From assembly GCA_964581515.1 (NCBI GenBank), contig CAZOOV010000001.1:180823-244822 (forward strand): a DNA stretch of 64,000 nt, in the 5' to 3' direction. The number at the start of each line of letters is the position of its first letter. Within the stretch, counting starts at the first letter, position 1. The notes below the pieces were generated by a model. It saw nothing but the letters and a program-made list of their open reading frames with translations, was not told where the DNA came from and ran no database searches. Below are positions 1 to 31,083 of the stretch, piece by piece. The position numbers and the translations under genes are program-made. Origin of the DNA: an uncultured Methanosarcinales archaeon (lineage in GTDB: Archaea; Nanobdellota; Nanobdellia; Woesearchaeales; JACJVV01).

Positions 1-451
1 TTCTTCTTGCTTTTGAAACATAATTAAGAATTATGCCTTCTTTGTATTTTCCACAACCCAAGAAGTCTTCATTTTTCTTTATTATAACAAAACCAACAAA
101 TTCTTGTTCTGATTTAATATCAGTGCCCATCAACCATTCTTTTGCTGTAGTGTTGTCTACTTCAAATACATTCTTAGTAGCAATCTTACCAATCAAAAGG
201 CTTCCTTCCATAGAAAGGCGAATATTACCATGATTTATCTCACAAAGATACATACCAAAGGAATTTACCCTTACTGCACTCAGGTCTATGTCTTTAATCT
301 CATTTGTTATTATATACACCTTATTCTTGTCTGATGTAAAGAAAGTATATTTGTCTATCAGAAGAGTTTTAGCATCGCACCCATATTCTTCACCTAAATG
401 TTCAAGGATCTTTGATGCTTCTTTCTTATTAAGAGCTTTTAATTTCATCAT
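1..451 (-). CDS. PUA-like / RsmF-C-terminal (NIP7-like) RNA-binding protein, 3' end outside window
   Basis: Not in the ORF track. Manual translation from ATG at 451 (ATGA overlap with the infB stop): MMKLKALNKKEASKILEHL...IRLSMEGSLLIGKIATKNVFEV...FLGCGKYKEGIILNYVSKARR, open to the window edge. The RLSxEGS and LGCGK pattern fits this archaeal family. Confidence 0.6.
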   Translation of the reverse strand, partial: MMKLKALNKKEASKILEHLGEEYGCDAKTLLIDKYTFFTSDKNKVYIITNEIKDIDLSAVRVNSFGMYLCEINHGNIRLSMEGSLLIGKIATKNVFEVDNTTAKEWLMGTDIKSEQEFVGFVIIKKNEDFLGCGKYKEGIILNYVSKARR

Positions 452-2211
452 ACACCCCATACGATGTTATTCTTTCGCATTTGTGTAGATATTTCCTTAA
501 GAACTTCAATCTCCTTATCTTTAAGAAACTTTTTTAGTCCCTTAAATTTCCTATAATCTTCGTCGCTGACACCAGAATAGAGAATATCTCCTTCATTGAT
601 CTGCCTGCCAATAGTTACATTATCAATAGAAATAGCTACTTCTGCGTCTTTTTCTACTTCTGTAACAGATTCTTTCTCTTTTTGTATACTTTTTATCTCT
701 GAGATTATTTTTCCATCCTTTAATATAGGCATACCTACCTTCAATTTACCTTCAATAACATGAACACCGCAAACTGCTGGATTTGATTGCCTGAAGATAT
801 AACCTTTCAAAACTTCAAATTTAGCAGGATAAGTCATACCATCAAGTTCTTTTCTTTCCTGCTCTTCTTTGAAATTCTTAAGATAATCATCAAGATCATC
901 TAAAATCTTATAGATTATCTTGTTGGTTATTATCTTAACATTCTTTGACTTAGTCTCCGATTGATCAATCACATTAAATCCAAGGACAATAGAATGTTCA
1001 GGATTCTTTTCCATATTAGACTCAGCATCGACAATATCTTTCTTACCTATATTACCAACTGCTGCCTTCATAACAGGTATCTCTTTCTCTTTCAATAAAT
1101 TAGTCATAGCTTCCAAACTTCCAATTGTATCTGCTTTAATGATAATACCTTCATTATCAGTCTCTACCAATGCTGATTCTACTTCTGCCTGGACTTCTTC
1201 CTTGATTGCTGGAAGTTCTATCTGCTTGCAACTTCGAACTGGCATACCTGCAATGACATCATCAATATCTGGAGCAACTATCCTTACCCCAATAGCAGCA
1301 TGTACTTCTTTGCACATACTATATTTTGTCTTCTTATCACGCATTTCACATAAGCATTCTGGTTCAAGAAGCATTTTTACTTTTGTAATTACTGGACCAT
1401 CAATCCCTCCTATTACAAGAGTATCTTCTTTGTTAAGAGAACCATCATATATTATTACATCCATAAGTTTTCCTAATCCTTTCTCTTCTTTTACTTCAAG
1501 TATTGTACCTTTAGCACCTACACCTTGTGTAACATGGAGATGATCCTCAAGATATCTTTGTGCAAGACCAGTAATCACCATAAGCAGTGATGAAATTCCT
1601 TCACCTGTCTCTGCAGAAACAGGTACTAGAGCAATCTGTTGAGTAAAATCCTGAACACGATCAAACCTTTCTGAATTAAGCCCATGTTCTGATAATGATC
1701 CAACAAGCTCATACATCTTTGTTTCAACTATAGTGTTGACATTAGGCTGTTGAGACGCAATATTTGCAAGAATTGGAGTATCTGGATTGGAATTCCAGCC
1801 AGGTATAAGATCAATCTTATTAGCTGCTACAATAAAAGGAGTCTTTGATGTCTTCAAAATCTCTATTGCTTCAATTGTCTGCGGCTTAAGACCTTCATTT
1901 ATGTCTATAACAAGAATTGCAATATCAGCGATAGTACCACCACGTTTCCTTAATGATGTGAAAGCAGCATGCCCAGGAGTATCAATAAAAAGAAGACCTG
2001 GAATGGTAAACTTAAGATTCATCTTATCAAGCATCTCACCACATTTTTGTTTTACAGTATTCAGTGGTATGATAGACGCACCAATCGCTTGTGTAATGCC
2101 TCCTGCTTCTTTAGCAAGAATATTACTGCCCCTAATACTATCTAGTATTTTTGACTTACCATGGTCTACATGGCCTAGTACAGTACATATTGGTGATCTT
2201 ATGTGTTCCAT
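448..2211 (-). CDS. infB: Translation initiation factor aIF5B (IF-2)
   Basis: RSPICTVLGHVDHGKS P-loop, GGITQAIGA, FIDTPGHAAF, NKID; archaeal length; no intein. Confidence 0.98.
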   Translation of the reverse strand: MEHIRSPICTVLGHVDHGKSKILDSIRGSNILAKEAGGITQAIGASIIPLNTVKQKCGEMLDKMNLKFTIPGLLFIDTPGHAAFTSLRKRGGTIADIAILVIDINEGLKPQTIEAIEILKTSKTPFIVAANKIDLIPGWNSNPDTPILANIASQQPNVNTIVETKMYELVGSLSEHGLNSERFDRVQDFTQQIALVPVSAETGEGISSLLMVITGLAQRYLEDHLHVTQGVGAKGTILEVKEEKGLGKLMDVIIYDGSLNKEDTLVIGGIDGPVITKVKMLLEPECLCEMRDKKTKYSMCKEVHAAIGVRIVAPDIDDVIAGMPVRSCKQIELPAIKEEVQAEVESALVETDNEGIIIKADTIGSLEAMTNLLKEKEIPVMKAAVGNIGKKDIVDAESNMEKNPEHSIVLGFNVIDQSETKSKNVKIITNKIIYKILDDLDDYLKNFKEEQERKELDGMTYPAKFEVLKGYIFRQSNPAVCGVHVIEGKLKVGMPILKDGKIISEIKSIQKEKESVTEVEKDAEVAISIDNVTIGRQINEGDILYSGVSDEDYRKFKGLKKFLKDKEIEVLKEISTQMRKNNIVWGV

Positions 2212-2242: not shown

Positions 2243-3181
2243 TTATGGCTTATACTTAGCTAATTCAGCCTTTAAAATCCTTAAGTTCTCTTCACCAGGA
2301 CATTCCTTTGCTGCAAAATCCCTATGCCCATAAACATTATCGTCAGAAATCTTATATCTCCTTTGAAGAGAAGTTACAAGAGCAATTACATTTGTTTTCT
2401 GCGCATCTGTAAGTGTTACAACACTACCGTCAGGATATCCTGTTTTTGGGTCGGTTGGCAATGTACCTACCATCTCTATACTTAGAGTACCTTCATTATG
2501 TCCTTTGCAGTGATACGCAATATTTGTTTCTGGAACTATCTGAATAATAGCTCCATCAATAGTACTATTCTTACCTTCACCAGTGCCATTCTCAACTATA
2601 TAATGTGCACTAAGAGATTTTTTTGCTGGAAGTTCATGATTGTGAAATGAGTTTTCTGCACTCTTGCCTTCTGACTGCGTTATATGAAGGAAGATCTGAT
2701 CAATGCCTACATTTCTGCCACCTACATGATAACCGGAAGTAAGGTTTGTTCTAGTAGGTCCAGCATAAGCTGGTGCATCTAATAATCCTGATTCTTTTGG
2801 TAAAGTCGCTTCAAGACCGATAGGTTCTGTATCATCTATCATATGTTCATCTGCAAATGCCATCAGCATCTCAACACGTAAATCCATATCGTGATTAGCT
2901 GGTGTTTTAGGTGTTTGATATGATCCAATAGAAGGTTCTTGACTTGCATCTGGTTTTGATTTAAACAGATTAGCTATACTATGTTTGCTTTGAAGATTTC
3001 CTGCAACACCAAGACCAATAACTCCTGCAAGCGCTAATAATGGAACTGCATAAGTCTTCATGTATGAGGCTACATTACCTGGCATTCTCTTAAGAGCATC
3101 AAAATAAGTGATGTCTCTAGCCATTATAGCATCAAAATCAGATGTATCAAATTCTTCTGGATTAGATTGTTTTTTAGTCAT
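2243..3181 (-). CDS. Membrane-anchored N-acetylmuramoyl-L-alanine amidase (Amidase_2/AmpD-like)
   Basis: IFLHIT, SAHYIV, IIQIVPETNIAYHC, SIEMVG, VYGHRD and KECPG give the His/His/Cys zinc ligands; hydrophobic segment AVPLLALAGVIGLGVAG near the N-terminus. Confidence 0.9.
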   Translation of the reverse strand: MTKKQSNPEEFDTSDFDAIMARDITYFDALKRMPGNVASYMKTYAVPLLALAGVIGLGVAGNLQSKHSIANLFKSKPDASQEPSIGSYQTPKTPANHDMDLRVEMLMAFADEHMIDDTEPIGLEATLPKESGLLDAPAYAGPTRTNLTSGYHVGGRNVGIDQIFLHITQSEGKSAENSFHNHELPAKKSLSAHYIVENGTGEGKNSTIDGAIIQIVPETNIAYHCKGHNEGTLSIEMVGTLPTDPKTGYPDGSVVTLTDAQKTNVIALVTSLQRRYKISDDNVYGHRDFAAKECPGEENLRILKAELAKYKP

Positions 3182-3246
3182 ATAGAACTTAGAAATGGTT
3201 TTATTTATAAGTCTTTTGGTTTTTTATCACTTAATAGTAGTTAATT

Positions 3247-3486
3247 TTATTGTTTTTGATATATTAAATGTTGATAAGGAGTTCTAGGCGTAGGTGAATA
3301 ATTAGGACCCTTATCCAGAAAGTATTTTGCTGTAACCACTGTACCAAATGAGAATGCTAATACAGTACCAGTTAGTGCAATAACTGCACCTAGTTTGATA
3401 ACAGGATAAATTACATTCTCTTTTACCTTAGTTGTCCTGGTATTCTGAGATATGCGAGTATCAATGGAATTATTGCTGATTTGCAT
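3247..3486 (-). CDS. Small single-pass membrane protein
   Basis: 79 aa ORF with one hydrophobic segment; TATA-like element upstream. Confidence 0.6.
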   Translation of the reverse strand: MQISNNSIDTRISQNTRTTKVKENVIYPVIKLGAVIALTGTVLAFSFGTVVTAKYFLDKGPNYSPTPRTPYQHLIYQKQ

Positions 3487-3586: not shown

Positions 3587-4978
3587 ATGGCATTAAAACT
3601 ATTCAATACATTAGGAAGAGAAAAGCAAGAGTTTGTGCCTATTGAGAAAGGCAAGGTAAGCATGTATAGCTGTGGGCCTACTGTATACAATTATTTGCAT
3701 ATAGGAAACTTGCGTGCTTTTATGTTTGCAGATCTTCTTAAAAAATATCTGAGATTCAAAGGGCTTGAAGTCAAACATGTCATGAACATCACTGATGTAG
3801 ATGACAAGACTATAAGAGATTCTCAAAAAGAAGGAAAGAGCCTAAAAGAATTCACTGAGTTTTATACAAAAATATTTCTGGACGATATTAAAAGCTTAGG
3901 CATGGATCCTGCTGATGTAATGCCAAAAGCAACCGATCATATCAATGAGATGGTCGAACTCGTAAAGAAGATGAAGGAAAAAGGACATACATATGAAAAG
4001 AACGGAACAATATACTTCAAAATAACTTCAATGGAAGATTATGGTAAGTTAGCATGTTTAGATCTTGAGAATTTAAAAGATAATGCAGATGGAAGACTTA
4101 ATAATGCTGATGAATATGAAAAAGATGATGCAAGAGATTTTGCATTATGGAAAGCATGGGAAGAAAAAGATGGAGATGTATTTTGGGAGACTGACCTTGG
4201 TAAAGGAAGACCAGGGTGGCATATAGAATGTAGTGCAATGTCAACTAAACATCTAGGCGACCAATTTGATATCCATACAGGTGGAGTTGATCTCATATTC
4301 CCACATCATACCAATGAAATAGCGCAGACAGAAAGCGCTACATGCAAACACCCTTGGGTGAATTACTGGATACATAATGCACATTTAATAGTGAATGGAG
4401 AGAAGATGTCAAAATCAATGGGCAATTTCTTCACACTAAAAGATTTGACAGATAAAGGATATGACAAGCGAGCTATCAGATTTGAACTGCTAAAGACACA
4501 TTACAGGATGAAACTTGATTTTAGAGAAGATGAACTTAAACAGATACCTGAAACATTAGCAAAATTTGATGAGATTGTCAGCAAACTACAATCTGTCAAG
4601 GGAGATAAAGGAGAAGATAAGATCTCAGAAAAGTTCTTGAAAGAATTTGAGAATGCAATGGATGATGATCTGAACATTTCAGGAGGACTCGCTGTTGTCT
4701 TTGAATTCATAAAAGAAGTAAATAAGGAATTAGATAATAATGATGTAGGAGATGCAAAAAGCTATCTTGAAACATTAAAGAAGCTTGATTCTGTCTTAAG
4801 CATAATGAAATTTGAGACTGAAGAGATCCCTGCAGAGATAACTGAGCTTGCTGAGAAAAGGCTTAAGGCAAGAGAAGAGAAGAACTGGGAAGAAAGCGAC
4901 AAGCTTAGAGATGAGATTCAGAGCAAAGGCTATGAAATCCTTGATGAAAAGGAAGGATATAGACTAAAGAAAAAATAA
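3587..4978 (+). CDS. cysS: Cysteine-tRNA ligase
   Basis: YSCGPTVY, HIGN, GRPGWHIECSAM, DIHTGGVDLIFPHH, KMSKS. Confidence 0.98.
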   Translation: MALKLFNTLGREKQEFVPIEKGKVSMYSCGPTVYNYLHIGNLRAFMFADLLKKYLRFKGLEVKHVMNITDVDDKTIRDSQKEGKSLKEFTEFYTKIFLDDIKSLGMDPADVMPKATDHINEMVELVKKMKEKGHTYEKNGTIYFKITSMEDYGKLACLDLENLKDNADGRLNNADEYEKDDARDFALWKAWEEKDGDVFWETDLGKGRPGWHIECSAMSTKHLGDQFDIHTGGVDLIFPHHTNEIAQTESATCKHPWVNYWIHNAHLIVNGEKMSKSMGNFFTLKDLTDKGYDKRAIRFELLKTHYRMKLDFREDELKQIPETLAKFDEIVSKLQSVKGDKGEDKISEKFLKEFENAMDDDLNISGGLAVVFEFIKEVNKELDNNDVGDAKSYLETLKKLDSVLSIMKFETEEIPAEITELAEKRLKAREEKNWEESDKLRDEIQSKGYEILDEKEGYRLKKK

Positions 4979-5753: not shown

Positions 5754-7451
5754 ATGATATTATATTCGACTATGAATTATTTTGAAGAACTCATTGAGTG
5801 GATAAAAGAGAATAAGCCTGATAAGGATAAACTCGCTAAACAGAAGGTCAAGCTATGCAGAAAACATGGCAAAAAGGAAATTCCTACTGATATTGAGATA
5901 TATTTACAGGCCACCATATATGATGCTAAGAAAATAAGAAGATATGTAGAAACAAAACCAACAAGAACTGGAAGTGGTGTTGCAGTTGTTGCTGTAATGA
6001 CAAAGCCTGCAAAGTGCCCTCATGGCAAATGCATATTTTGCCCTGGTGGAGTAGAAAGCGAATTTGGTGATGTTCCTCAAAGCTATACAGGCAAAGAGCC
6101 TTCCACTATGAGAGGGATGAGAAATGATTATGATCCATACAGAATCGTATTTAATCGGTTAGAACAATATATAGTAATAGGACAGAACCCTGAAAAAGTA
6201 GACCAAATAATAATGGGTGGAACTTTTTGCTCAATGCCTAAAAAATATCAAGAAAATTTTATTCATCATTCATTCAAGGCATATAATGATTTTTCTGATA
6301 TGTTTTACATTAAAGGTAAGTTAGATCTTAAGAAGTTCAAAGAATTCTTCGAACTGCCAGGGAAAGTCAATGATAAGAAACGTAGCATAAGAATAAAGAA
6401 GAAAGTGTTAGCTCTTAAGAAGAAAAATAAAAAAAGCCTTTTTGAAGAGCAGAAAAGAAATGAGAAAAGTGCTATCCGGTGCATAGGAATCACTGTTGAG
6501 ACTAGACCAGATTGCGGTCTTGTTGAGGATGGTATCAGATTACTTAGTCTTGGAGTCACTAGAATAGAACTAGGAGTACAGACAGTATATGATGATGTAC
6601 TAAAGAAAGTCAATAGAGGTCATAATGTCAAAGATTCTAAAAGAAGCATTGCCGAACTCCGTGATTTAGGATTTAAACTAAATTTTCATATAATGCCAGG
6701 ACTTCCTGGAGTTAGCAAGAAAAAAGATATAGAAAATTTCAAGACTTTCTTCAGAAACAGCTGGTTCAAGCCAGATATGCTGAAGATATATCCTTGCATG
6801 GTTATGCCAGGGACTGAGCTGTATAAATGGTATAAGAAAGGTAAATTTAAACCACTCATTACAAAAGAAGCAGCTGAAATAATTGTTGAAGGTTTCAAAT
6901 ATATCCCTGAATGGTGCAGGGTTATGAGAGTGCAGAGAGATATTCCAACATATGTGACTTCTGCAGGCGTTGACAGGACAAACTTAAGACAATATGTGAA
7001 TGAACTTGCCAGAAAGAAGAAAGTTAAGATAAATGATATCAGGGCAAGAGAGATCAGAAAGGAGAAAGTAAAAGAAAAAGGAAAGATAAAAGTAATTGAA
7101 TATATTGCCAGTAACAGTAAAGAATACTTTATTAGTTGTGAAGCTGATGGAAAATTACTTGGTTTTTTGAGATTAAGGCATGTTGTCAGGTCATTGCACA
7201 GTGCCATAACACTCGATAGCGGAGTAATTAGGGAATTACATGTCTATGGAAGTGCTGTAGGTATAGGAAAAGAAGGAGATATTCAGCATAAAGGCGTTGG
7301 TAAAAGACTTATGAAAAAAGCTGAAGAAATATGTCTGAAAAAGAAAAAAGATAAGATGGTTGTCATTTCTGGAGTAGGTGCAAGAGATTATTACAGAAAA
7401 TTAGGATATAAAAAACAAGGACCTTATATGGTCAAGAAGTTGAGACTATAG
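5754..7451 (+). CDS. elp3: Elp3 radical SAM/GNAT tRNA U34 acetyltransferase
   Basis: CPHGKCIFCPGG, QSYTGKEP, ETRPD, RVQRDIP, RELHVYG, QHKGVG, ISGVGARDYYRKLGY. Confidence 0.96.
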   Translation: MILYSTMNYFEELIEWIKENKPDKDKLAKQKVKLCRKHGKKEIPTDIEIYLQATIYDAKKIRRYVETKPTRTGSGVAVVAVMTKPAKCPHGKCIFCPGGVESEFGDVPQSYTGKEPSTMRGMRNDYDPYRIVFNRLEQYIVIGQNPEKVDQIIMGGTFCSMPKKYQENFIHHSFKAYNDFSDMFYIKGKLDLKKFKEFFELPGKVNDKKRSIRIKKKVLALKKKNKKSLFEEQKRNEKSAIRCIGITVETRPDCGLVEDGIRLLSLGVTRIELGVQTVYDDVLKKVNRGHNVKDSKRSIAELRDLGFKLNFHIMPGLPGVSKKKDIENFKTFFRNSWFKPDMLKIYPCMVMPGTELYKWYKKGKFKPLITKEAAEIIVEGFKYIPEWCRVMRVQRDIPTYVTSAGVDRTNLRQYVNELARKKKVKINDIRAREIRKEKVKEKGKIKVIEYIASNSKEYFISCEADGKLLGFLRLRHVVRSLHSAITLDSGVIRELHVYGSAVGIGKEGDIQHKGVGKRLMKKAEEICLKKKKDKMVVISGVGARDYYRKLGYKKQGPYMVKKLRL

Positions 7452-10400
7452 AACCATAATCATTCCTGACATCATCAGGGGATCTAAAAGTAATAGGTAT
7501 ACTATACACCTGAGGTCTTATGGATAAATCTTTTTCTAGGAAGTAAAATATATCATTATCTACTACTACAGTAGTTTCAACAGGTATGTCAATCTGTTTA
7601 TTTGTCTGAAAGTTCATCTCAATAACATTATTGTAAGAATATCTGTTCAAGACAAGCTTTCTTTGATTATCTGTAATATATGTAAAGAAATTAAGTTCCA
7701 ATTGACCAGTCTTATCATTGTCAATGTATGTAACCCTATCGTTCAGATCTGTATAGGACGCAGGTAGTGCACTTTGATAATATAATTGCCTCTGCTGTTG
7801 AAGGCCAATCCTTAGGGAGAGGTCTCTTTTTGCTTCAAGATTTAACTTTTGCAGAAGATTTATTTCTTGTGTTGTATTTACTGTGTTATTGTATATGATA
7901 TTAAAGTTTGAAGTGTATTCATCAACATCTTGTTTTATCATCATAACATAATTTGGATCAAAAACTTCTCTTGCATTGCCCTCATATGTTGCTTCTGTAC
8001 TGCTGAGTTTCCCTATTGATAATAAACCAATAATATCTTCTCTTACATATATACTATTTTCTCCAGACATATTTGCACAATTTTTGAAACAGATATGTTT
8101 ATTTTCCATATTACCATAACTGCTTACTGCAACTTCATATTCCTGAGGAAGATATCTGTATAAGCAATCCTTTTGTCTTAATGTTACATTTGCGACATAA
8201 GTTCCCTTTATGCTATTTAATCTCCCTATACCAGGGTAAGTTGTAGTAGATTGCAAAGTAGAATGATTTATGAAATACATCTCCCAGCTACTACCTCTTA
8301 CATAATTCTCTCTTGTATTGTCTGGCAATAATGGACCAAAATAAATCTCTTTTACAGACCATGAATTGTTGTCTGGTGATGAAGCATTGATGTATGTTAT
8401 GTTACCAGATGGACTGTAATGAATTGTTATTGCATCTGCTGAGTCTGAACGCATGTAAATTTCTACATCGTCATTATGAAGGATTGCTCTATGATTAGGT
8501 GATGGTCTTAACTCAATTGCTGTTATTTCATCTACAGATGAGTCTAAGTTTGCTATCCATGAACCTTTTATTACATTGTGTGCTAAAATGGAATTATTAC
8601 CTACTTCTATCAAATTCCAAAACATTGTTGCGTGCTCTGCTACTATCAAATCAGGAGTCTGGACTAAGTCTCCACCATGATTTATTATTATTCTCTTAGG
8701 ATTTGAAATTGTTATATCTCCATATGCCCTATATGAATCATCAATTGAAGAGATTATGAAACCTGAATAGGTCTGGAAGTCTGCATCGTAGGTTTGTAAG
8801 ATGAGTGCCATCAAGTCTGATGTTATCTGGTCTGATATTTCGTTAAAGTTTGCTGTGTTTCCTTGTGATACCTCTTCTTGCAGTAAAGTTAAATATGTTA
8901 GGCCTAATATCTGTAATGCTTCTGATGATAGATTATCTGGAATAGGTATTGATACTGAAATGTTTAATGGTTGAAGTGCTGTGTTTGCTATTGAGAGTAG
9001 AGATTGATCATGATCCCTGTTAATCCTTTCTATGAATAAATTCCCTAATGTTTCTAAATCAGTTGTAGATGTTGACGTTGGCAGTGATGGTGGTGGTATC
9101 ATAGTATTATCTAATTGATCTAGAATAGTTGCTGTGTTTGGGATTGTACTTAGGAATTCTCTTGCAGGGATTAAGTTTGGATTGTTGTTTGCATCTAATA
9201 AGCTGTGTTGGATGAAGTCATAGTCTATTGTGTAGTCTGGATCGTCTGTTGGGTAGCCTGTTAGAGCGTTTGGTGTGTATGTTTGGCCTTGCATTTCTAT
9301 GATTGCAGGTGATGAATCTGGAAGGCGAACTTGTGTTTTGTCTTCATCAAAGTTTATTTGTGCAACTGGCTGTTCTGTATCTGGTTGTACAATTGTGGGA
9401 GAAGAAGATGGTAATTCTGAAACAAGAATATCATCAGGTGGAAGATATATCATTACAGAAGTATCATCATTTATAACTTCAGTTGTTGAAGCACCATCAA
9501 GTGACTGATCTACATGGACATCTGTGAATGCATTAACACCTACACTTATTTCTTGATCATCTCCTTCATGATCAAAAACTACTTCTGCAGGTGAGTCCAT
9601 AGGTCCTGAAGCCATATCTTCTGCAGTAGCAGTGGGATCAGATGTTGAAGTAAGACCTACATTATCTATAGTTTCTTCTATTTTATCAAGAGAATTAGAA
9701 GGTGGTAATTCTTCTGAAATAGTTTCTTCATCACCATTATCTTCTTCAGAGATATCTTTTAATATTTCTTCATAAGGTTTTAAATTGGTCTCAGGAAGTG
9801 CAGGTTCATAAGTTGATCTAAATTCATGAATATCGGATTGTTCTATATTAGATAAACCAAAACATTCTGGCAAGCAAACTTCAGGCCAAACATAGTTAGG
9901 ACCATCATTATCCTCTACTAAAGTGACATCTCCATTCTTAATTGCTTCATCTATCTTTTGAAAATCCTTACCAGTCATTGCTTCTAAATATATAATTGAC
10001 TTTGATGGATCTGTTTTAAAATTTGAATAAAAATATTTATTTAATGTTCCTTGAAGTAATTCATCATCTCCGTCATCAATAATTAATTGACGTAATCCTT
10101 CCTCATTTGTTGTTACAAACTTACTAACACAAGTACCACAATTAATTGCAGTGTCTTGATTGTTCATTAATTCTTTTTGTTGGTTAGCATCTAATTTATC
10201 ATATAACTGATTCTGTGATTTTATGATATTCTGCTGTTGTGTTCCTTCTAGATCATACCATACACTTTGTAACTCAGTCTGATCAATTGTATTTAATAAA
10301 GCAGGGTTATTCAGATTATCTGAATTTGATAAGAATGAATATAGATTATCACCCTTGCATTCTGTAAGAGATTCACCATCACAAGTAGCATTAATTAAAG

Positions 10401-10452
10401 GTAATACTATTATAATAATTAAAAGAATGCTAATATTATTATTAATTTTCAT
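7432..10452 (-). CDS. Large secreted surface protein, paralogue B (1006 aa)
   Basis: Signal peptide ending ...LPLINA; acidic, Ser/Thr/Pro-rich middle; C-terminal ~400 aa aligns by eye with 11606..14491. Confidence 0.85.
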   Translation of the reverse strand: MKINNNISILLIIIIVLPLINATCDGESLTECKGDNLYSFLSNSDNLNNPALLNTIDQTELQSVWYDLEGTQQQNIIKSQNQLYDKLDANQQKELMNNQDTAINCGTCVSKFVTTNEEGLRQLIIDDGDDELLQGTLNKYFYSNFKTDPSKSIIYLEAMTGKDFQKIDEAIKNGDVTLVEDNDGPNYVWPEVCLPECFGLSNIEQSDIHEFRSTYEPALPETNLKPYEEILKDISEEDNGDEETISEELPPSNSLDKIEETIDNVGLTSTSDPTATAEDMASGPMDSPAEVVFDHEGDDQEISVGVNAFTDVHVDQSLDGASTTEVINDDTSVMIYLPPDDILVSELPSSSPTIVQPDTEQPVAQINFDEDKTQVRLPDSSPAIIEMQGQTYTPNALTGYPTDDPDYTIDYDFIQHSLLDANNNPNLIPAREFLSTIPNTATILDQLDNTMIPPPSLPTSTSTTDLETLGNLFIERINRDHDQSLLSIANTALQPLNISVSIPIPDNLSSEALQILGLTYLTLLQEEVSQGNTANFNEISDQITSDLMALILQTYDADFQTYSGFIISSIDDSYRAYGDITISNPKRIIINHGGDLVQTPDLIVAEHATMFWNLIEVGNNSILAHNVIKGSWIANLDSSVDEITAIELRPSPNHRAILHNDDVEIYMRSDSADAITIHYSPSGNITYINASSPDNNSWSVKEIYFGPLLPDNTRENYVRGSSWEMYFINHSTLQSTTTYPGIGRLNSIKGTYVANVTLRQKDCLYRYLPQEYEVAVSSYGNMENKHICFKNCANMSGENSIYVREDIIGLLSIGKLSSTEATYEGNAREVFDPNYVMMIKQDVDEYTSNFNIIYNNTVNTTQEINLLQKLNLEAKRDLSLRIGLQQQRQLYYQSALPASYTDLNDRVTYIDNDKTGQLELNFFTYITDNQRKLVLNRYSYNNVIEMNFQTNKQIDIPVETTVVVDNDIFYFLEKDLSIRPQVYSIPITFRSPDDVRNDYGSIVSTS

Positions 10453-10470
10453 TTTGTTATTAATATAGTC

Positions 10471-11604
10471 CTATTTAGGTATTGCAAGATATACATTAGG
10501 TGATACATCGTAAATATATTTGATTGTTTTACTGCCTTCTTTCAATAAAACAAAGGCTTTTCCAGATTGATCCCCTATTATACCTTGAGCCATCTTATTA
10601 CTCAAATCTACACTCCCAATCATTTTTACATAAGGATTAATTTCTGTAACTAAATCATATAATTCTTTTTTCTTCGCTTCTGATAAATAATCTAAACTTG
10701 GAAAAAAGGGCAATAAAACACTTCTTAAGTTTTGACCTGGTTTAATTTTAACTATTCTTGCATTTTTTGGTGTCTTTGAGATGGATTCCTTAGAATGATT
10801 AATATCTAATTTGCCTGCTAAAGCTAAATCAAGATAAAAATCTTTTAGTGAACCTTTGTATTTTGAATCTAAAGAAGTTGCATCAATAAATCTTGCTATC
10901 TCTTGATAATCATTAAACTCATTTACGTTTTTATTAAAGTCAGAAGGCCAAAGTCGCCCCCTTTTTGCGAATACTCTTTTTGCAATTGAGTCTATTGTCC
11001 TTTGATAAGCATCTGATGTTGTATCTATCCCAAGATTATTTTTACGTATGTATTCATCAACAGCTTTTCTATATGCATCTTCTTGTAATCCTGATTCTAA
11101 TTTTATCTTAGCAGGTAGTAATTTTATTCTAGATGTAGGATATTGATTAGCCTGTTCTATTCCTTGTCTTTGTGGTTCTGGTGTTTGTTGATTTGTCTGT
11201 GCTATCGCTGGTTGAGCTGACGCAAGCATAGCTCCTGCTGCTGCTACTCGCATTGGTTGTGTTGCTCTTCTTGTGAATCTTCTCCATAAGGAAGGCCTTA
11301 GATCATCAAGATGATCTATATAATGAATAGCAGAAACTTCATGGTTCAGTTCAGAGGCCAATCTTGATTGCTCTGTTTGACTTGGATCGTTTTTTGCAAG
11401 CATTGCTTCAAGCATTTCTTTTATCCTCTTAACCTCAGCCTTAGCATGCACAACCTTGTCATCTCTTGAATGTAGCTTTGAGAGCTCCTTTAATACATTC
11501 TCAACTATAGACTTTCTCTGTTCTATATCCTTTCTAAGCCATTTCCATTGTGCAGGCAAATCACCTAATTTGTTAAGCTTAGATAGTTCTCTCTTGATTC
11601 CCAT
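10471..11604 (-). CDS. Protein with internal signal-like segment and C-terminal LysM-like motif
   Basis: RRFTRRATQPMRVAAAGAMLASAQPAIA at ~aa 108-135; C-terminus VKIKPGQNLRSV...VTEINP...SPNVYLAIPK. Confidence 0.7.
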   Translation of the reverse strand: MGIKRELSKLNKLGDLPAQWKWLRKDIEQRKSIVENVLKELSKLHSRDDKVVHAKAEVKRIKEMLEAMLAKNDPSQTEQSRLASELNHEVSAIHYIDHLDDLRPSLWRRFTRRATQPMRVAAAGAMLASAQPAIAQTNQQTPEPQRQGIEQANQYPTSRIKLLPAKIKLESGLQEDAYRKAVDEYIRKNNLGIDTTSDAYQRTIDSIAKRVFAKRGRLWPSDFNKNVNEFNDYQEIARFIDATSLDSKYKGSLKDFYLDLALAGKLDINHSKESISKTPKNARIVKIKPGQNLRSVLLPFFPSLDYLSEAKKKELYDLVTEINPYVKMIGSVDLSNKMAQGIIGDQSGKAFVLLKEGSKTIKYIYDVSPNVYLAIPK

Positions 11605-11605
11605 C

Positions 11606-14491
11606 TTAAGTAGCTATCAATTCACCATAATCCTGCTTGACATCATCAGGAGGTTTGAAATAGATCCAGTTGTCATAAACATTAGGCTGCAACGAGAGAT
11701 CATCCTCAAGGAAATAAGTTATGTCATTATCAACAACAACATTTGTTATGACAGGAATGTCTACAGGCATAGTCTCAATCGAATTGAGTTCAATCATATT
11801 ATTGTATGAGAATCTGTTCAAAACAAGTTTCCTCTTGCCATCCATGACATAAGTAAAAAGATTCAGATCAATATAACCTTCATCATTGTCTATGTAACTG
11901 ACTTTCTCATTCAAATCTGTAAATGAAGCAGGAGCTGCATTCTGATAATATAACTCACTCTGAAGTTCCAATGATTCACGCACTGAAAGATTCCTTTTTG
12001 ATTCTCTGTTTAATCTGAAAAGAAGATCATCCTCAGCAGATCCTGTTATTGAATTTGCTACAAGTGTGTTGAAGTTTGATGTGAACTCAAGATTTGAATC
12101 CTTAGTCAATAATAATGAATTTAGATCAAATACCTCTCTTGAATTGCCTTCATAATCAATCACTATGCTTCCCATAGTCCCAATTGAGATAACACCTTGA
12201 TTATCATCTCTAACATAGACAGAATTATCTATATTGATATTACTGCAATTAATGAAACAAATTATCTTCTCTTCAAAAGTACCATATCTACTTGATTTAA
12301 CTTCGTATTTTGCAGGAAGATATCTGAAGAGTGCATCTGAAGACTTTAAAGTTACATTGGAAACATACAAACTTTTGTTAACATCAAAATCACCTATAGT
12401 AAATCCAGTTATAGGATTTGTGAAGATCCCTTGTGTTTCTTTTGATGCAGCAACCATCTGTTGTAACTCCACTAAATCTATTGTAAATTGCTCTCCTCTA
12501 ACATAGTATGTTCTTTCTGTATTAGTTAGCTCTGGACCAAAGTAAACTTCAATTTCTGAACCATCACTACCGATTGCAGTTATCTTATTCATGTTTCCAC
12601 TTGAATCATAATCTACAGTTACTGATGCTGAGCCACTGCCTGATGATTGATCAAACCTGATGTCAATATCTGCATCATCATTCTGGATAATTGCTCTTCC
12701 TGAAGCTGGAGGCATTACTGTCATACTTTCAATAGTTCCAGAGATAGGGTCTCTAGTGACAATAAAACTACCACTTACAACTTCATTGTCAATTGTTAAA
12801 GTTGCATCTTCTGCTGTAATTACAGATGGTGTTACTGAAACATCTCCATTCCTATTTTGTATGTTTACATTTCCATCTTCAATGTTTTGTCTTCCTGATG
12901 CGTCGTAGCCTGACGTCCCCCATTCAAAAGAAGAATATCCAGATGTACTTGCGCCAGATGAAGTACACATACCTAAATAAGCATTCCAATATTGTCCACT
13001 AGGACATCCATCTTCAGGCATACCTGTAGTATCTGCTTCTTCAATATCTCCTGAATCTATCAAGGCCTGGATCTCCTCTTCAGTCAATGTTGAAATATCA
13101 CCTACACCTTCACCAGTCACAACATATGGATCTCCAGTTCCTGAAGGGATTATATCCCCCACAGAAGATTCTTCTTCAGGTTCTTCATCAGAACTGACTA
13201 TTACTTCACTGTATCCTTGTGTAAATACTACTTCTGCACCACCATTTTCGTCAAATATAAGAATTCCATCAGCATCAAGAGCAATATCTCCTCCAGTATT
13301 AATTATCTCTACTGTTGAAGCTGCAGCTGGTGGATTCTCTGCTAAAGAACCAGTCTGTCCAAGGAACTGACCTGTATTTGGATCATACCATTCAACTCTT
13401 CCAGTCTCTTCATTGATAGTATAAGCACGACCATCATCAAAAGTACTAAGTCCAGAAGTATCTGAAATACTTGGAAGAACATCATCTCTCCAATCCTCTT
13501 CACCCACCATTGGAGCATCATCATCAGAGCCTAATGAAAAAGGATCATCAGTAGGATATAATGAGAAAGCAAAATCACCACCAAATTGCGTATCAACAAG
13601 AGTAATTGCACCAGCATCTGAACCACCCAATTGAATTGGACTGCCATCTGCACTTGTAATCGTAAAATCGTGAGAAAGTTCTCCTGATATTGATGTCTCG
13701 TCACCGATTGTAATTTCTATTACAATTGAATCGTCATCTGCTGCTTCACTTGTCTCAAAGATATCAACTGTCGCTCCATTATATTCTGTTCCAAGCGAAG
13801 TCAAATCAAGTGCATTTCCATTTACAGTTAATGTATCAGTATCTGGGTCGTATACTACATCTTGTGCAGAATCAAAATCAGATTCAGGCATAACAAAATT
13901 GATTGAGCCTTCTGCTCTTGAGTCAAGAAATTCTGCTGCATAATCACTATCTAATAATCTTCCACTATCACTAAAATAATCTTGGAAAGATTCTTCTAAA
14001 TCAGGGTCATTAAAAAGAGCGTCTCCACTACCTACATTAGCACCGATATAAGATTCCATCGCACGTGTTAAACCAGGTTCACTATCCCAATCGACACTGC
14101 TAATAAATTCTTCTGCCTGAGAATCTGAAAGCTTATTTATTGCATTTGCATCTGTAGATGGATGTCTTAACAAAGCAACCTGATCCTCATAAGGAATATT
14201 ATCCCATGAAGCTTGAAGATCTGTATCTGAAGCAGTATTGACAAAATTTATCTTTTCTGAAGGACCCATATAACCCCATGCTTCTTGGAACTGCTGTTCA
14301 CTCAAAGCTGAAGGATTGCTCTGTGCCAGACCCATCTTATCTTCTTTTGACATTTCATCCCAATCATCTACTCCTTCGCCGCCACCTGTAGATACACTTT
14401 GTCCAGCTGCAGGAGCAGGTGGTGCATATACACTAGCAACTAACAAAATCATTATTGTTAATGTTATTAGATTGATTATATTAGTTCTCAT
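11606..14491 (-). CDS. Large secreted surface protein, paralogue A (961 aa)
   Basis: Signal peptide ending ...VASVYA; very acidic beta-rich body; shared C-terminal region with 7432..10452. Confidence 0.85.
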   Translation of the reverse strand: MRTNIINLITLTIMILLVASVYAPPAPAAGQSVSTGGGEGVDDWDEMSKEDKMGLAQSNPSALSEQQFQEAWGYMGPSEKINFVNTASDTDLQASWDNIPYEDQVALLRHPSTDANAINKLSDSQAEEFISSVDWDSEPGLTRAMESYIGANVGSGDALFNDPDLEESFQDYFSDSGRLLDSDYAAEFLDSRAEGSINFVMPESDFDSAQDVVYDPDTDTLTVNGNALDLTSLGTEYNGATVDIFETSEAADDDSIVIEITIGDETSISGELSHDFTITSADGSPIQLGGSDAGAITLVDTQFGGDFAFSLYPTDDPFSLGSDDDAPMVGEEDWRDDVLPSISDTSGLSTFDDGRAYTINEETGRVEWYDPNTGQFLGQTGSLAENPPAAASTVEIINTGGDIALDADGILIFDENGGAEVVFTQGYSEVIVSSDEEPEEESSVGDIIPSGTGDPYVVTGEGVGDISTLTEEEIQALIDSGDIEEADTTGMPEDGCPSGQYWNAYLGMCTSSGASTSGYSSFEWGTSGYDASGRQNIEDGNVNIQNRNGDVSVTPSVITAEDATLTIDNEVVSGSFIVTRDPISGTIESMTVMPPASGRAIIQNDDADIDIRFDQSSGSGSASVTVDYDSSGNMNKITAIGSDGSEIEVYFGPELTNTERTYYVRGEQFTIDLVELQQMVAASKETQGIFTNPITGFTIGDFDVNKSLYVSNVTLKSSDALFRYLPAKYEVKSSRYGTFEEKIICFINCSNINIDNSVYVRDDNQGVISIGTMGSIVIDYEGNSREVFDLNSLLLTKDSNLEFTSNFNTLVANSITGSAEDDLLFRLNRESKRNLSVRESLELQSELYYQNAAPASFTDLNEKVSYIDNDEGYIDLNLFTYVMDGKRKLVLNRFSYNNMIELNSIETMPVDIPVITNVVVDNDITYFLEDDLSLQPNVYDNWIYFKPPDDVKQDYGELIAT

Positions 14492-15471
14492 GGTGACACC
14501 GTCAGCTTGAATTTCTTAGATACCTTATATGTGTCGTCATCAAGCGTTATAGTTATATTATACTGGCCAATATCTAGTGCATCCGGGACATAATTAATCA
14601 ATCCAGTATCCTCATCTATGTCAAATAATACAGTATTGTCATAAAACTTACAATGATGTGATGCATTTATCTGCATAAGGTAAGGAGTACCTACAAAAAC
14701 TGTAATGTTTGGTAAGTTTCCTTCAAAATCCAGTATTGATGGCAGATAGTGATCATCATAGATTGCAAAAGAGAACTTCAAAGGATTGGTTCTTAGTCTT
14801 GCTGATGTGTTTATCATATCAATTACTTTGATATTTCCAGAATAAGGATTAATTATCATCTCAAAATCAGTATCATAGAGCTTATCAAGCAACATAAGAT
14901 TAGGATAATCAAGAAGATCATTAACCACTATATTTCTCAATTCCACCATCCTTCCATAAGGTATAAAATGCCTTGTCTGATAAGAATTATACCTATAAGT
15001 TACATCATCTGCAACTGTCTCAAGTGCATAAATCAATTCTGCATCAACTGACTCTGGAAAGATTGTTACTTTTGCTTCAGGAGAACCTGTTTTCATTATA
15101 TGTATAGTTGAATCATCAAGACATGAATCAATATTTTCTTCTATATACCTTTCAATCTCACTCTCCATAAATGATATACTTGGTGATGTATTTTGATTTG
15201 AGTAAATCGAATACGCAAAAGTACGCTTAGTTGTAGTAAGATTAGGATTATAAGTATAAATAAAACCTCCTTGCGCTGCTAAAATCTCAATTGAATCAAC
15301 TACATTGAATTTCATGCACTCTTTTACATAATATGGCACTGGCTGACTTGTATCTTTCAAAAACCAACGCATAGCGCCTGAATCGCTTGACGCCAGAAGA
15401 AATACAATAAAGACAATAACAAAGATTATGCCTAAAAGAACGAATACTGATACCTGAGACTTATTTTTCAT
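14488..15471 (-). CDS. Class III (pilin-like) signal peptide protein with C-terminal Ig/cadherin-like domain
   Basis: Preferred start MKNKSQ|VSVFVLLGIIFVIV (KxSQ + hydrophobic); C-terminus DIDEDTGLINYVP...GQYNITITLDD. Confidence 0.7.
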   Translation of the reverse strand: MKNKSQVSVFVLLGIIFVIVFIVFLLASSDSGAMRWFLKDTSQPVPYYVKECMKFNVVDSIEILAAQGGFIYTYNPNLTTTKRTFAYSIYSNQNTSPSISFMESEIERYIEENIDSCLDDSTIHIMKTGSPEAKVTIFPESVDAELIYALETVADDVTYRYNSYQTRHFIPYGRMVELRNIVVNDLLDYPNLMLLDKLYDTDFEMIINPYSGNIKVIDMINTSARLRTNPLKFSFAIYDDHYLPSILDFEGNLPNITVFVGTPYLMQINASHHCKFYDNTVLFDIDEDTGLINYVPDALDIGQYNITITLDDDTYKVSKKFKLTVSP

Positions 15472-15613
15472 TTTTAAGATCCTCCTCAATGAGATGTTCA
15501 ATATAATTAGAAACCTTGATCATACGGCTAGCTAGCTTTTTCTTCAGTTTTTCTATCAACTTATCGTCAATAGTTGCTGAGATGCGTGTTTTTGTTCCTG
15601 ATCCTTTACGCAT
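15461..15613 (-). CDS. Ribbon-helix-helix (CopG-like) transcription regulator
   Basis: MRKGSGTKTRISATIDDKLIEKLKKK...VSNYIEHLIEEDL; true start is the internal Met of track ORF 15461..15838. Confidence 0.75.
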   Translation of the reverse strand: MRKGSGTKTRISATIDDKLIEKLKKKLASRMIKVSNYIEHLIEEDLKNEK

Positions 15614-26441: not shown

Positions 26442-26455
26442 TTTTATTTATTTTC

Positions 26456-30992: not shown

Positions 30993-31053
30993 TTTTCATT
31001 AATTGTTTATGGAGAAATAAATAAAAAATAAAAACCTCCTAAGAGATTTTTAA

Positions 31054-31074: not shown

Positions 31075-31083
31075 AATAAAAAT

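What the first reader, a model, noticed from the sequence alone, without database searches (positions are those of the whole stretch)
2243..3181. Membrane-anchored peptidoglycan amidase in a DPANN-like archaeon
Seen: an intact Amidase_2 motif set (HIT, GHRD and ECPG zinc ligands; SIE glutamate) behind a TM anchor and a long linker, inserted among housekeeping genes. Established: this family cleaves the MurNAc-L-Ala bond, and archaea of this type lack peptidoglycan. Inference: the enzyme faces outward and attacks or scavenges bacterial walls, implying a bacterial host, prey or food source.
Basis: partly seen in the sequence, partly recalled or inferred. Interest (0 to 1): 0.72.

Follow-up and report, generated by a model that had tools for sequence, protein, structure and literature searches.

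The report
Membrane-tethered peptidoglycan amidase in a Woesearchaeon
A tiny DPANN archaeon (Woesearchaeota) carries a well-integrated gene for a surface-tethered enzyme that should cut bacterial cell-wall peptidoglycan; this is real and probably functional, but archaea of this group were already known to carry such enzymes.

Summary
ORF 2243..3181 (-) encodes a 312-aa protein with four parts: a 43-residue N-terminal segment, one hydrophobic helix (about residues 44-63), a 75-residue acidic disordered linker, and an Amidase_2 domain (Pfam E 1.9e-18). The domain has a complete Glu-type catalytic set: H166, E236, H286, K292, C294.

The host is a Woesearchaeota (DPANN) archaeon. The locus was assembled independently at least four times with the same archaeal neighbours. 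Its codon usage is native, and it has an archaeal TATA-like box 30 nt upstream of the ATG. It is therefore not a bacterial misassembly.

The protein belongs to a small, discrete Amidase_2 clade. Every member with usable genomic context lies in an archaeal contig, two of them attributable to Woesearchaeota/Nanoarchaeia. Other members carry signal peptides or 2-3 LysM domains after their membrane segment, which supports an outward-facing, peptidoglycan-directed enzyme.

Whether it attacks living bacteria or harvests wall fragments is unresolved.

The idea is not new. Peptidoglycan hydrolases in Nanoarchaeota, including LysM+Amidase_2 in Woesearchaeales, and possible bacterial hosts were published between 2021 and 2025. 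This is a new member of a known kind. Its modest twists are the absence of a wall-binding domain and a lineage-specific membrane anchor shared with an unrelated protein.

The parts
2243..3181 (-). Complete ORF, 312 aa plus stop: membrane-tethered Amidase_2 protein
   Evidence: ORF list; Pfam PF01510 E 1.9e-18; the identical protein and neighbours appear in independent assemblies.
3053..3181 (-). N-terminal segment, residues 1-43, predicted cytoplasmic. It holds the motif FDTSDFDxIMARDITYFD, which is shared with the unrelated 203-aa protein P0021.
   Evidence: P0021 matches query residues 2-57 at 55% identity; alignment A4. No Pfam family covers this segment.
2993..3052 (-). Single hydrophobic helix, residues 44-63 (YAVPLLALAGVIGLGVAGNL): signal anchor
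   Evidence: Kyte-Doolittle 1.93 (19 aa) and 2.33 (15 aa), the only such segment in the protein. AlphaFold places helix 37-59 here. The segment is rich in Gly and Ala.
2768..2992 (-). Linker, residues 64-138: acidic, Pro/Ser/Thr-containing, predicted disordered
   Evidence: 6 K/R against 13 D/E; pLDDT below 50 over residues 53-129; not alignable to relatives.
2246..2767 (-). Catalytic domain, residues 139-312. It comprises a clade-specific N-terminal extension (Y139-x-GP-x-R-x-N-L-T-x-G-x-H-x-G) and the Amidase_2 core. Zn ligands: H166 (2684-2686), H286 (2324-2326), C294 (2300-2302). Catalytic residues: E236 (2474-2476) and K292 (2306-2308).
   Evidence: Pfam. Invariant columns in A1, A2 and A3. 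Residue-level alignment to T7 lysozyme and the LysCS endolysin. The 44 best Foldseek hits are all of the Amidase_2/PGRP fold. Column statistics over 82 relatives.
3203..3211 (-). TATA-like box CTTATAAAT, starting 30 nt upstream of the ATG: an archaeal-type promoter for a leaderless or short-leader mRNA
   Evidence: Sequence. The same motif sits at -28 to -36 in 14 of the 57 genes, and within the counted window of -38 to -22 in 15 of 57, against 3% of random positions. aIF-2, CysRS and the 79-aa ORF are among them.
3247..3486 (-). 79-aa single-TM ORF, 65 nt upstream and on the same strand, with its own TATA-like box. It travels with the amidase in all assemblies, but a functional link is not shown.
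   Evidence: No Pfam or NCBIfam hit. No homologue at the syntenic site of the nearest relative.

Best explanation
The gene encodes a zinc-dependent N-acetylmuramoyl-L-alanine amidase that a Woesearchaeota (DPANN) archaeon displays on the outside of its own membrane.

Shown: the ORF; the Amidase_2 domain and fold; a complete Glu-type active site (Zn ligands H166/H286/C294, catalytic E236 and K292); a single N-terminal membrane helix; a disordered 75-residue linker; native archaeal composition and promoter; and membership of a small archaeal clade whose other members carry signal peptides or LysM domains.

Inferred: the helix acts as a type II signal anchor (N-terminus inside, C-terminus outside), so the catalytic domain swings on the linker in the space around the cell. 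There it would cut the stem peptide from MurNAc in bacterial peptidoglycan. Because the archaeon has no murein of its own, the substrate must come from bacteria. That could be the wall of a bacterium in direct contact (host or prey) or wall fragments released by others.

The enzyme stays tethered and has no wall-binding domain, so its action is local to the archaeal surface. It is not that of a diffusible bacteriocin.
For: - Domain: Pfam Amidase_2 E 1.9e-18. A profile of the clade hits the solved amidases LysCS/LysC at 4e-13, T7 lysozyme at 2e-12 and AmpD at 2e-10.
- Fold: AlphaFold2 gives 10-residue block pLDDT means of 51-92 for the domain. The 44 best Foldseek PDB hits are all Amidase_2/PGRP structures, including AmpD, PlyL, AmiD, LysC and T7 lysozyme.
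- Active site: H166, H286 and C294 align to T7 H17, H122 and C130, and K292 to K128. E236 is invariant in the clade. It covaries with Ala/Ser at position 192 in 43 of 43 relatives, whereas Tyr192 pairs with a non-Glu residue in 33 of 35.
- Export: every clade member has exactly one hydrophobic segment upstream of the domain. LysM domains follow it in P0002 and P0009.
- Archaeal and native: there are four or more independent assemblies with the same neighbours. GC is 0.373 against a window mean of 0.337 (sd 0.028). Codon-usage distance ranks 13th lowest (0-based rank 13) of 57 genes. A TATA-like box sits at -30.
- Clade: clade members score 218-277 bits against 111 for the next protein, and the clade is monophyletic in 32 of 40 bootstraps. 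The contexts are archaeal: RFC/CarS/PAC2/RpoK for P0002 and PTH2/TFIIE/L15e for P0006. NCBI names members of the P0006 cluster and its neighbour as Candidatus Woesearchaeota, and the L017 contig as Candidatus Nanoarchaeia.
- Inheritance: PTH2-amidase-HAD synteny is kept between contigs of 53% and 43% GC, so the gene is inherited within archaea.
Against: - No activity, localisation or expression data exist.
- The positive-inside rule is nearly neutral: 3 K/R on each side of the helix. No dedicated topology predictor was available.
- The window protein has no recognisable wall-binding domain.
- A 75-residue tether may not reach past an S-layer to an intact sacculus, least of all one under a Gram-negative outer membrane. 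That weakens the 'attack' reading.
- The structure model is only of moderate confidence (mean pLDDT 62, from 10 sequences).
- Absence of murein synthesis in this genome is assumed from knowledge of the group. Only 64 kb of about 613 kb was examined.
Confidence: 0.7

Rival explanations
1. Nutrient harvesting rather than attack. The tethered amidase strips stem peptides from soluble muropeptides or wall debris that diffuse to the archaeal surface. This would supply amino acids, and possibly amino sugars, to an organism with little biosynthetic capacity. No specific bacterial host is implied. This is a sub-case of the best explanation and differs from it only in ecological meaning.
For: The protein has no LysM or other wall-binding domain, unlike its relatives P0002 and P0009. 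It stays membrane-bound on a short flexible tether. It is expressed from its own housekeeping-style promoter among translation genes. The solved relatives AmpD and AmiD act on muropeptide turnover products (descriptions).
Against: No peptide or muropeptide transporter lies next to the gene. Relatives with LysM domains look built to hold on to polymeric walls. The third zinc ligand is Cys, as in lytic endolysins, not Asp as in AmpD/AmiD.
Confidence: 0.3
2. The domain faces the cytoplasm, or the protein acts on a substrate other than peptidoglycan, for example an amide bond in an archaeal glycoconjugate. In that case no link to bacteria follows.
For: The charge distribution around the helix is nearly symmetric. 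Substrate specificity cannot be read from sequence. Strock et al. note that some catalytic domains can cut non-peptidoglycan bonds (PMC12352652).
Against: Clade relatives carry classical signal peptides and LysM domains. All structural neighbours are peptidoglycan amidases or peptidoglycan-recognition proteins. The full catalytic set is conserved down to 37% identity.
Confidence: 0.07
3. Autolysin for a murein-like wall made by the archaeon itself, following acquisition of bacterial wall-synthesis genes.
For: DPANN genomes hold many bacterial-type genes (PMC8204110). Only a tenth of this genome was inspected.
Against: Pfam scans of the window's ORFs found no Mur-type, transpeptidase or other wall-synthesis domain; only ORFs of about 120 aa or more, plus the 79-aa ORF at 3247..3486, were scanned. 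No such wall is known in this group (established knowledge). The nearest relative lacks the gene at this site, which would be odd for a cell-division function.
Confidence: 0.03
4. Remnant of a phage or virus lysis cassette: a small TM 'holin-like' ORF followed by an endolysin with a Gly/Ala-rich, SAR-like anchor. It would have been carried in by a mobile element, or it would reflect bacterial contamination of the assembly.
For: A 79-aa single-TM ORF lies directly upstream on the same strand. The anchor is rich in Gly and Ala. The gene is absent from the syntenic slot of the nearest relative.
Against: There are no phage genes nearby. The best phage and IMG/VR matches are at most 30% identical. 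Composition, codon usage and promoter are native. The same junctions occur in four or more assemblies, including a 613-kb scaffold. The anchor sits 43 residues in and is followed by a 75-residue linker, unlike SAR endolysins. The anchor module is shared with another protein (P0021) of unassigned, probably related, origin from the same sample series.
Confidence: 0.03

Closest known systems
Archaeal peptidoglycan hydrolases surveyed by Strock et al. 2025 (PLoS Biol, PMC12352652), in particular the LysM+Amidase_2 proteins of Woesearchaeales and Pacearchaeales in their S2 Table
   Same: The phylum (Nanoarchaeota/DPANN), the catalytic family (PF01510), the patchy distribution and the proposed target (bacterial murein) are all the same. 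The closest relative of the window protein, P0002, has exactly the LysM+Amidase_2 architecture.
   Different: The window protein has no Pfam wall-binding domain, so it fails that survey's inclusion rule. It is membrane-tethered by an internal signal anchor rather than secreted through a Sec/Tat signal peptide. No member of this clade has been tested; the experiments in that paper were on haloarchaeal M23 and glucosaminidase proteins.
Glu-type Amidase_2 endolysins: PlyL (1yb0/2ar3), XlyA (3hmb/3rdr) and LysC/LysCS of Clostridium intestinale (6ssc/6srt)
   Same: The fold is the same (TM-score normalised to target 0.62-0.70). The Zn site is His/His/Cys, and the H-x5-K-x-C spacing is identical. 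PlyL's catalytic Glu90 is the residue mutated in entry 2ar3; its equivalence to E236 rests on the Pfam consensus and on my knowledge, not on a printed alignment.
   Different: Identity is only 16-21%. The window protein is not phage-encoded and has no C-terminal wall-binding domain. It has a clade-specific 20-residue N-terminal extension and two extra loops, at residues 198-207 and 244-251.
T7 lysozyme and catalytic PGRPs (Tyr-type Amidase_2)
   Same: The zinc ligands and the Lys align residue for residue: H17/H122/K128/C130 to H166/H286/K292/C294.
   Different: The catalytic Tyr46 position is Ala192. The window protein has Glu236 where T7 has Cys.
AmpD / AmiD / AmpDh2-3 (bacterial muropeptide-recycling amidases)
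   Same: These are the best Foldseek E-values (2y28, 7e-8). They share the catalytic Glu. AmiD and AmpDh2 are also membrane-attached, extracytoplasmic enzymes (their attachment is from my knowledge).
   Different: Their third zinc ligand is Asp, not Cys. AmpD is cytosolic and specific for anhydro-MurNAc. Identity is 19-23%.
Giant extracellular lytic-transglycosylase proteins of Woesearchaeota/Pacearchaeota (Castelle et al. 2021, PMC8204110; Vigneron et al. 2022, PMC9723730)
   Same: They come from the same lineages and carry the same proposed meaning: binding or degradation of bacterial walls, with possible bacterial hosts or prey.
   Different: The enzyme class differs (a glycosidic bond against an amide bond), as do size and architecture. 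No SLT domain was found in this window.

Membership tests
Pfam Amidase_2 (PF01510), N-acetylmuramoyl-L-alanine amidase / PGRP superfamily | Profile match above the curated gathering score | tested here: met
   67.5 bits against a cutoff of 26, E 1.9e-18, residues 160-297, covering profile positions 5-131 of 131.
Pfam Amidase_2 (PF01510), N-acetylmuramoyl-L-alanine amidase / PGRP superfamily | Zinc ligands His, His and Cys (or Asp), with H-x7-C spacing at the C-terminal pair | tested here: met
   H166, H286 and C294 are present. They align to T7 lysozyme H17, H122 and C130. Among 82 relatives the columns read H 80/82, H 82/82, and C 66 plus D 16.
Pfam Amidase_2 (PF01510), N-acetylmuramoyl-L-alanine amidase / PGRP superfamily | Catalytic residues: Lys two residues before the Cys, plus either a Tyr (T7/PGRP type) or a Glu (PlyL/AmpD type) | tested here: met
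   K292 and E236 are present. Position 192 is Ala, which pairs with Glu236 in 43 of 43 relatives.
Pfam Amidase_2 (PF01510), N-acetylmuramoyl-L-alanine amidase / PGRP superfamily | Mixed alpha/beta PGRP-like fold | tested here: met
   The AlphaFold2 model has domain 10-residue block pLDDT means of 51-92. The 44 best Foldseek PDB hits are all of this fold, with probability 0.72-1.00 (0.98-1.00 for all but rank 43).
Pfam Amidase_2 (PF01510), N-acetylmuramoyl-L-alanine amidase / PGRP superfamily | Hydrolysis of the MurNAc-L-Ala amide bond | not testable with these tools
   This needs a biochemical assay.
Modular archaeal peptidoglycan hydrolases as defined by Strock et al. 2025 | At least one Pfam catalytic peptidoglycan-cleaving domain | tested here: met
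   Amidase_2 is on their list (S10 Table) and is present here.
Modular archaeal peptidoglycan hydrolases as defined by Strock et al. 2025 | [quoted passage not shown] | tested here: not met
   There is no second Pfam family at E <= 0.01. The relatives P0002 (2 LysM) and P0009 (3 LysM) do meet this criterion.
Modular archaeal peptidoglycan hydrolases as defined by Strock et al. 2025 | Encoded in an archaeal genome | tested here: met
   The nearest genome is a Woesearchaeota MAG. Archaeal markers run throughout the window. The locus appears in multiple assemblies.
AmpD-type cytosolic anhydro-muramyl-L-alanine amidase | Soluble cytosolic protein without a signal or TM segment, with Asp as the third zinc ligand | tested here: not met
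   A TM helix is present at residues 44-63. The third ligand is Cys294.
Phage endolysin (including the SAR type) | Encoded in a phage or prophage lysis cassette; for the SAR type, a weakly hydrophobic anchor at the extreme N-terminus directly joined to the catalytic domain | tested here: not met
   The neighbours are housekeeping genes. Phage and IMG/VR relatives are at most 30% identical. The anchor starts at residue 44 and is followed by a 75-residue linker.

The most novel reading that the evidence does not exclude
The amidase rides on a lineage-specific anchor module: the cytoplasmic motif FDTSDFDxIMARDITYFD plus a PLLA-type TM helix. A related organism uses the same module on a quite different ectodomain (P0021, at the end of a 10-gene block of unknown and TPR proteins). 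If this module is an address tag that places effectors at a cell-cell contact site, the protein would be a contact-dependent wall-opening tool. It would also be the first concrete molecular handle for showing that a marine Woesearchaeon lives on a bacterial rather than an archaeal host.
Probability: 0.15. Interest if true: 0.65.

Novelty: new member of a known kind. Interest (0 to 1): 0.3.

Why it matters
No host of any Woesearchaeon has been identified. Enzymes that can only act on murein are among the few genomic hints that some DPANN archaea depend on, or prey on, bacteria. This locus adds a clean example that is demonstrably native. It also shows that surveys requiring a wall-binding domain undercount such enzymes. 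It defines a small archaeal Amidase_2 clade with shuffled export and anchoring modules: signal peptide, a lipobox-like Cys, a cytoplasmic domain plus TM helix, and LysM x2 or x3. The catalytic domain is small and easy to express, so the key claim of murein cleavage could be tested directly. The concept itself is already published, so the gain is incremental.

Tried and rejected
- Species-representative genomes: a scan with the clade alignment found no relative. The two peptide patterns used fit only the window/P0002-P0005 subgroup (P0006 reads HITDSEDQS and SSHYIIE). The negative result therefore means only that close relatives are absent from GTDB representatives.
- N-terminal module: a word-indexed search with alignment A4 returned nothing, not even the query. 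It is uninformative.
- P0009: an exact look-up is not on record. A near-identical 548-aa copy was later found in L017.
- Metagenome scan: it yielded only two loci.
- First tree script: it timed out and was redone with a faster distance method. That tree is a rough NJ tree with 40 bootstraps. The sister group (P0016) is not reliable.
- Donor lineage: none could be identified. The nearest non-clade proteins are far away (mean distance 1.33 against 0.77 within the clade).
- Giant multi-Amidase_2 + Peptidase_C70 proteins (P0007, P0010, P0012, P0017): these are next in E-value and come from a 71% GC contig with uninformative neighbours. They were rejected as close kin after profile scoring, at 75-76 bits.
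- Missing catalytic Tyr: considered as a sign of inactivity and rejected because of the 192/236 covariation.
- Slot proteins of the nearest relative: tested for homology to the window's 79-aa ORF, the amidase and the 178-aa ORF. None was found.
- Bacterial sigma-70 promoter and terminator scan: no enrichment (24 found against 24.2 expected), and not relevant for an archaeon.
- NCBIfam gave no hit for the amidase.
Full report
**1. What is in the sequence**

ORF 2243..3181 on the minus strand starts with ATG and encodes 312 residues. Pfam assigns residues 160-297 to Amidase_2 (PF01510) with E 1.9e-18 and 67.5 bits against a gathering score of 26, covering almost the whole profile. NCBIfam has no model for it.

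The protein has one hydrophobic segment, residues 44-63 (YAVPLLALAGVIGLGVAGNL). Its Kyte-Doolittle mean is 1.93 over 19 residues and 2.33 over the best 15. Nothing inside the domain exceeds 0.96.

Residues 64-138 are acidic (13 D/E, 6 K/R), do not align to any relative, and are modelled with pLDDT below 50.

**2. Is the enzyme intact?**

A profile of the clade finds solved Amidase_2 enzymes:
- LysCS/LysC of Clostridium intestinale, E about 4e-13
- a Clostridium perfringens endolysin, 4e-13
- T7 lysozyme, 2e-12
- AmpD, 2e-10

The printed alignment puts H166 on T7 His17, H286 on His122, K292 on Lys128 and C294 on Cys130.

The T7 catalytic Tyr46 column is Ala192, which at first looks like a defect. 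Across 82 relatives the two columns covary. Tyr at 192 goes with a non-Glu residue at 236 in 33 of 35 cases. Ala or Ser at 192 goes with Glu at 236 in 43 of 43. The protein is thus a complete Glu-type amidase: H/E/H/K/C. That PlyL has the same set, and that its Glu90 (the residue mutated in PDB entry 2ar3) is the equivalent of E236, rests on the Pfam consensus and on my knowledge, not on a printed alignment.

An AlphaFold2 model from 10 sequences has a mean pLDDT of only 62, because of the N-terminal half. In the domain, the 10-residue block means are 51-92. Its 44 best Foldseek matches in the PDB are all Amidase_2/PGRP structures, including AmpD at 7e-8, PlyL, AmiD, AmpDh2, LysC (TM-score to target 0.70) and T7 lysozyme.

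**3. Whose gene is it?**

The flanks are archaeal translation and tRNA-modification genes:
- aIF-2/aIF5B, 448..2211 (NCBIfam equivalog, 777 bits)
- CysRS, 3587..4978
- Elp3, 5754..7451

Further along the window are ValRS-type synthetase, RFC, Nop56/58, PCNA, RNase J, an anaerobe oxidative-stress cluster and an intron-bearing tRNA.

The nearest species-representative genome is 'MAG: Candidatus Woesearchaeota archaeon HK-STAS-Nano-4', with 79% aIF-2 identity on a 712-kb contig.

The identical protein with the same neighbours occurs in four kinds of assembly:
- an ENA scaffold of 612,951 bp
- a JGI contig of 307,196 bp
- a Logan contig of 7,567 bp
- a JGI contig of 2,847 bp

The gene's GC (0.373) and GC3 (0.198) lie within the window's spread (means 0.337 and 0.229). 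Its codon-usage distance ranks 13th lowest (0-based rank 13) of 57 genes.

A TATA-like box, CTTATAAAT, starts 30 nt upstream of the ATG. That is the same position as in aIF-2 (-29), CysRS (-32) and the 79-aa ORF (-30). The box falls within the counted window of -38 to -22 in 15 of 57 genes, against 3% of random positions. Misassembly or bacterial contamination can be set aside.

**4. Relatives**

The family is small. A search of 1.84 billion cluster representatives gave only 9 proteins at E <= 1e-10.

With a clade profile, seven full-length proteins score 218-277 bits and the next protein scores 111. The clade is monophyletic in a rough NJ tree, in 32 of 40 bootstraps.

All members share a 20-residue N-terminal extension, Y-x-G-P-D-R-x-N-L-T-S-G-x-H-V-G-G, which is folded into the model.

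Wherever context exists it is archaeal:
- P0002 lies between UDG and PAC2/RpoK, near RFC and CDP-archaeol synthase.
- P0006 lies between Pth2 and a HAD hydrolase, near a Ski2-type helicase, TFIIE-alpha and L15e.
- A 548-aa P0009-type copy lies in the same Pth2/HAD slot of a 48-kb contig.

NCBI names a member of the P0006 cluster 'N-acetylmuramoyl-L-alanine amidase [Candidatus Woesearchaeota archaeon]'. It assigns the L017 contig to Candidatus Nanoarchaeia.

Between the two Pth2/HAD loci (53% and 43% GC), Pth2 is 72% identical, HAD 59%, and the amidase domain only 37%. The gene is inherited vertically within the lineage but evolves fast, as surface or conflict proteins do.

By contrast, the nearest relative of the window organism has unrelated genes in the CysRS/aIF-2 slot and no amidase there. 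Distribution is therefore patchy at short range.

Phage and IMG/VR relatives are at most 30% identical.

A second, more distant Amidase_2 group (P0014 type, with Asp as third ligand) also sits on an archaeal contig with an archaeal uS12.

**5. Topology and architecture**

Each clade member has exactly one hydrophobic segment before the domain, but at different places:
- residues 5-23 in P0002, P0004 and P0005, which look like classical signal peptides
- residue 29 in P0003, with a lipobox-like LAAC
- residue 46 in the window protein
- residues 166-180 in P0006 and P0009, after a helical cytoplasmic domain

In P0002 and P0009, two and three LysM domains lie between that segment and the amidase. 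LysM is an extracytoplasmic murein/chitin-binding module (established knowledge).

This is the main evidence that the catalytic domain is exported in the window protein too. The charge rule alone is nearly neutral, with 3 K/R on either side of the helix.

The window protein's first 57 residues, including the start of the helix, are 55% identical to the N-terminus of P0021. P0021 is a 203-aa protein with a different C-terminal part. It comes from the same series of samples but is never seen on a contig longer than 192 kb, so it is probably from a related organism. The amidase domain has therefore been grafted onto a native anchor module.

**6. Mechanism**

Shown:
- an intact Glu-type zinc amidase domain
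- a single anchor helix and a flexible acidic linker
- native archaeal expression signals

Inferred:
- Orientation is N-terminus inside, C-terminus outside.
- The domain works in the space around the cell, cutting MurNAc-L-Ala bonds.
- The substrate is bacterial, because this group makes no murein (established knowledge, not checked for the other 550 kb of this genome).

The data do not decide between two uses. One is local opening of the wall of a bacterium in contact (host or prey). The other is stripping peptides from wall fragments as food.

The lack of a binding domain favours the second use. So does a tether that, even fully extended (about 25 nm by my estimate of 0.35 nm per residue), would barely clear a typical archaeal surface layer. 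LysM-bearing relatives and the Cys-type zinc site of lytic enzymes favour the first use.

**7. Comparison with what is known, and novelty**

- Castelle et al. 2021 (PMC8204110) described large extracellular lytic-transglycosylase proteins in Woesearchaeota and Pacearchaeota, and raised bacterial hosts.
- Vigneron et al. 2022 (PMC9723730) proposed 'vampiristic' Woesearchaeota that degrade peptidoglycan.
- A 2024 study of oxygen-deficient zones repeated the point (PMC10936187).
- Strock et al. 2025 (PMC12352652) found modular peptidoglycan hydrolases in about 5% of archaeal genomes, most prominently in Nanoarchaeota. They showed killing of a bacterium by two haloarchaeal enzymes. Their S2 Table lists LysM+Amidase_2 in Woesearchaeales (MBS3102811.1) and Pacearchaeales, and PG_binding_1+Amidase_2 in Pacearchaeales.

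The window protein would have been missed by that survey because it has no wall-binding domain, but it is the same kind of thing. I rate it a new member of a known kind.

Three points are new here:
- a discrete Woesearchaeal Amidase_2 clade with its own N-terminal extension
- the shuffling of export and anchor modules within that clade
- the shared anchor module with P0021

**8. Verdict**

The molecular interpretation is supported. The ecological inference is plausible but untested, and it is already in the literature. Interest is 0.3.

Noticed in passing
window 7432..15501 (-): A block of four co-oriented ORFs without any Pfam hit (1006, 377, 961 and 337 aa). The 1006-aa and 961-aa proteins are paralogues (44% identity over 449 aa), and both begin with a signal-like hydrophobic segment. 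They are candidate giant surface proteins of the kind discussed for DPANN cell-cell contact.
   Followed up: partly
window 24135..28747 (-): A T2SSE-type secretion/pilus ATPase (763 aa, PF00437) lies next to a 768-aa protein of unknown function with a Lys-rich N-terminus. This may be a pilus or secretion module.
   Followed up: no
window 53277..54639 (+): Glucose-6-phosphate dehydrogenase is split into two overlapping ORFs in different frames (G6PD_N 53277..53774, G6PD_C 53689..54639). The break is where the conserved RIDHYLGKE motif should be; only ..NLGKE.. remains. This is a frameshift, a pseudogene or an assembly error. It sits in a pentose-phosphate cluster with a lactonase-type PF01182 protein and 6PGD.
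   Followed up: partly
window 38289..38422 (-): A tRNA was found by Rfam (44.3 bits) that spans 134 nt for a 71-position model, so it carries an intron. ARAGORN found no tRNA in the window.
   Followed up: no
window 30393..32359 (-): Three tandem ORFs of 195-199 aa have hydrophobic N-termini and no Pfam hit. They are weakly paralogous (27% identity over 190 aa between two of them).
   Followed up: partly
window 48353..51006 (+): An anaerobe-type oxidative-stress cluster: Fur, two rubrerythrins, ferritin and desulfoferrodoxin, followed by an 8-oxoguanine glycosylase. This is consistent with life at a redox interface.
   Followed up: no
window 39007..43006: Two adjacent SPFH/Band 7 proteins (25% identical) lie beside a DUF6384 protein.
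   Followed up: no
L014/L015 6001..6612 (protein P0021): A 203-aa protein shares the amidase's N-terminal motif (FDTSDFDxIMARDITYFD) and the start of its TM helix, but has a different, probably coiled-coil C-terminal part. It ends a run of ten co-oriented genes of unknown function, including TPR proteins.
   Followed up: partly
L013 791..1654 (protein P0014) and relatives P0015, P0016, P0025: A second group of Amidase_2 proteins with Asp as third zinc ligand (motif HS-x-LDPSRRKDPG). P0014 lies on a contig with an archaeal-type ribosomal protein uS12, so at least one member of this group is archaeal as well.
   Followed up: partly
L012 728..5356 (protein P0007) and P0010, P0012, P0017: Giant proteins of 1100-1540 aa from a 71% GC contig carry two or three Amidase_2 domains plus a Peptidase_C70 (AvrRpt2-like) domain. 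One also has a C92 amidase domain. They sit next to a subtilase. The architecture looks like a multi-headed wall-degrading toxin.
   Followed up: no
alignment of 82 Amidase_2 domains (columns of window residues 192 and 236): There is near-perfect covariation between the 'catalytic Tyr' column and the 'catalytic Glu' column. Tyr pairs with a non-Glu residue in 33 of 35 cases, and Ala/Ser pairs with Glu in 43 of 43. This suggests two alternative catalytic solutions within one Pfam family.
   Followed up: yes
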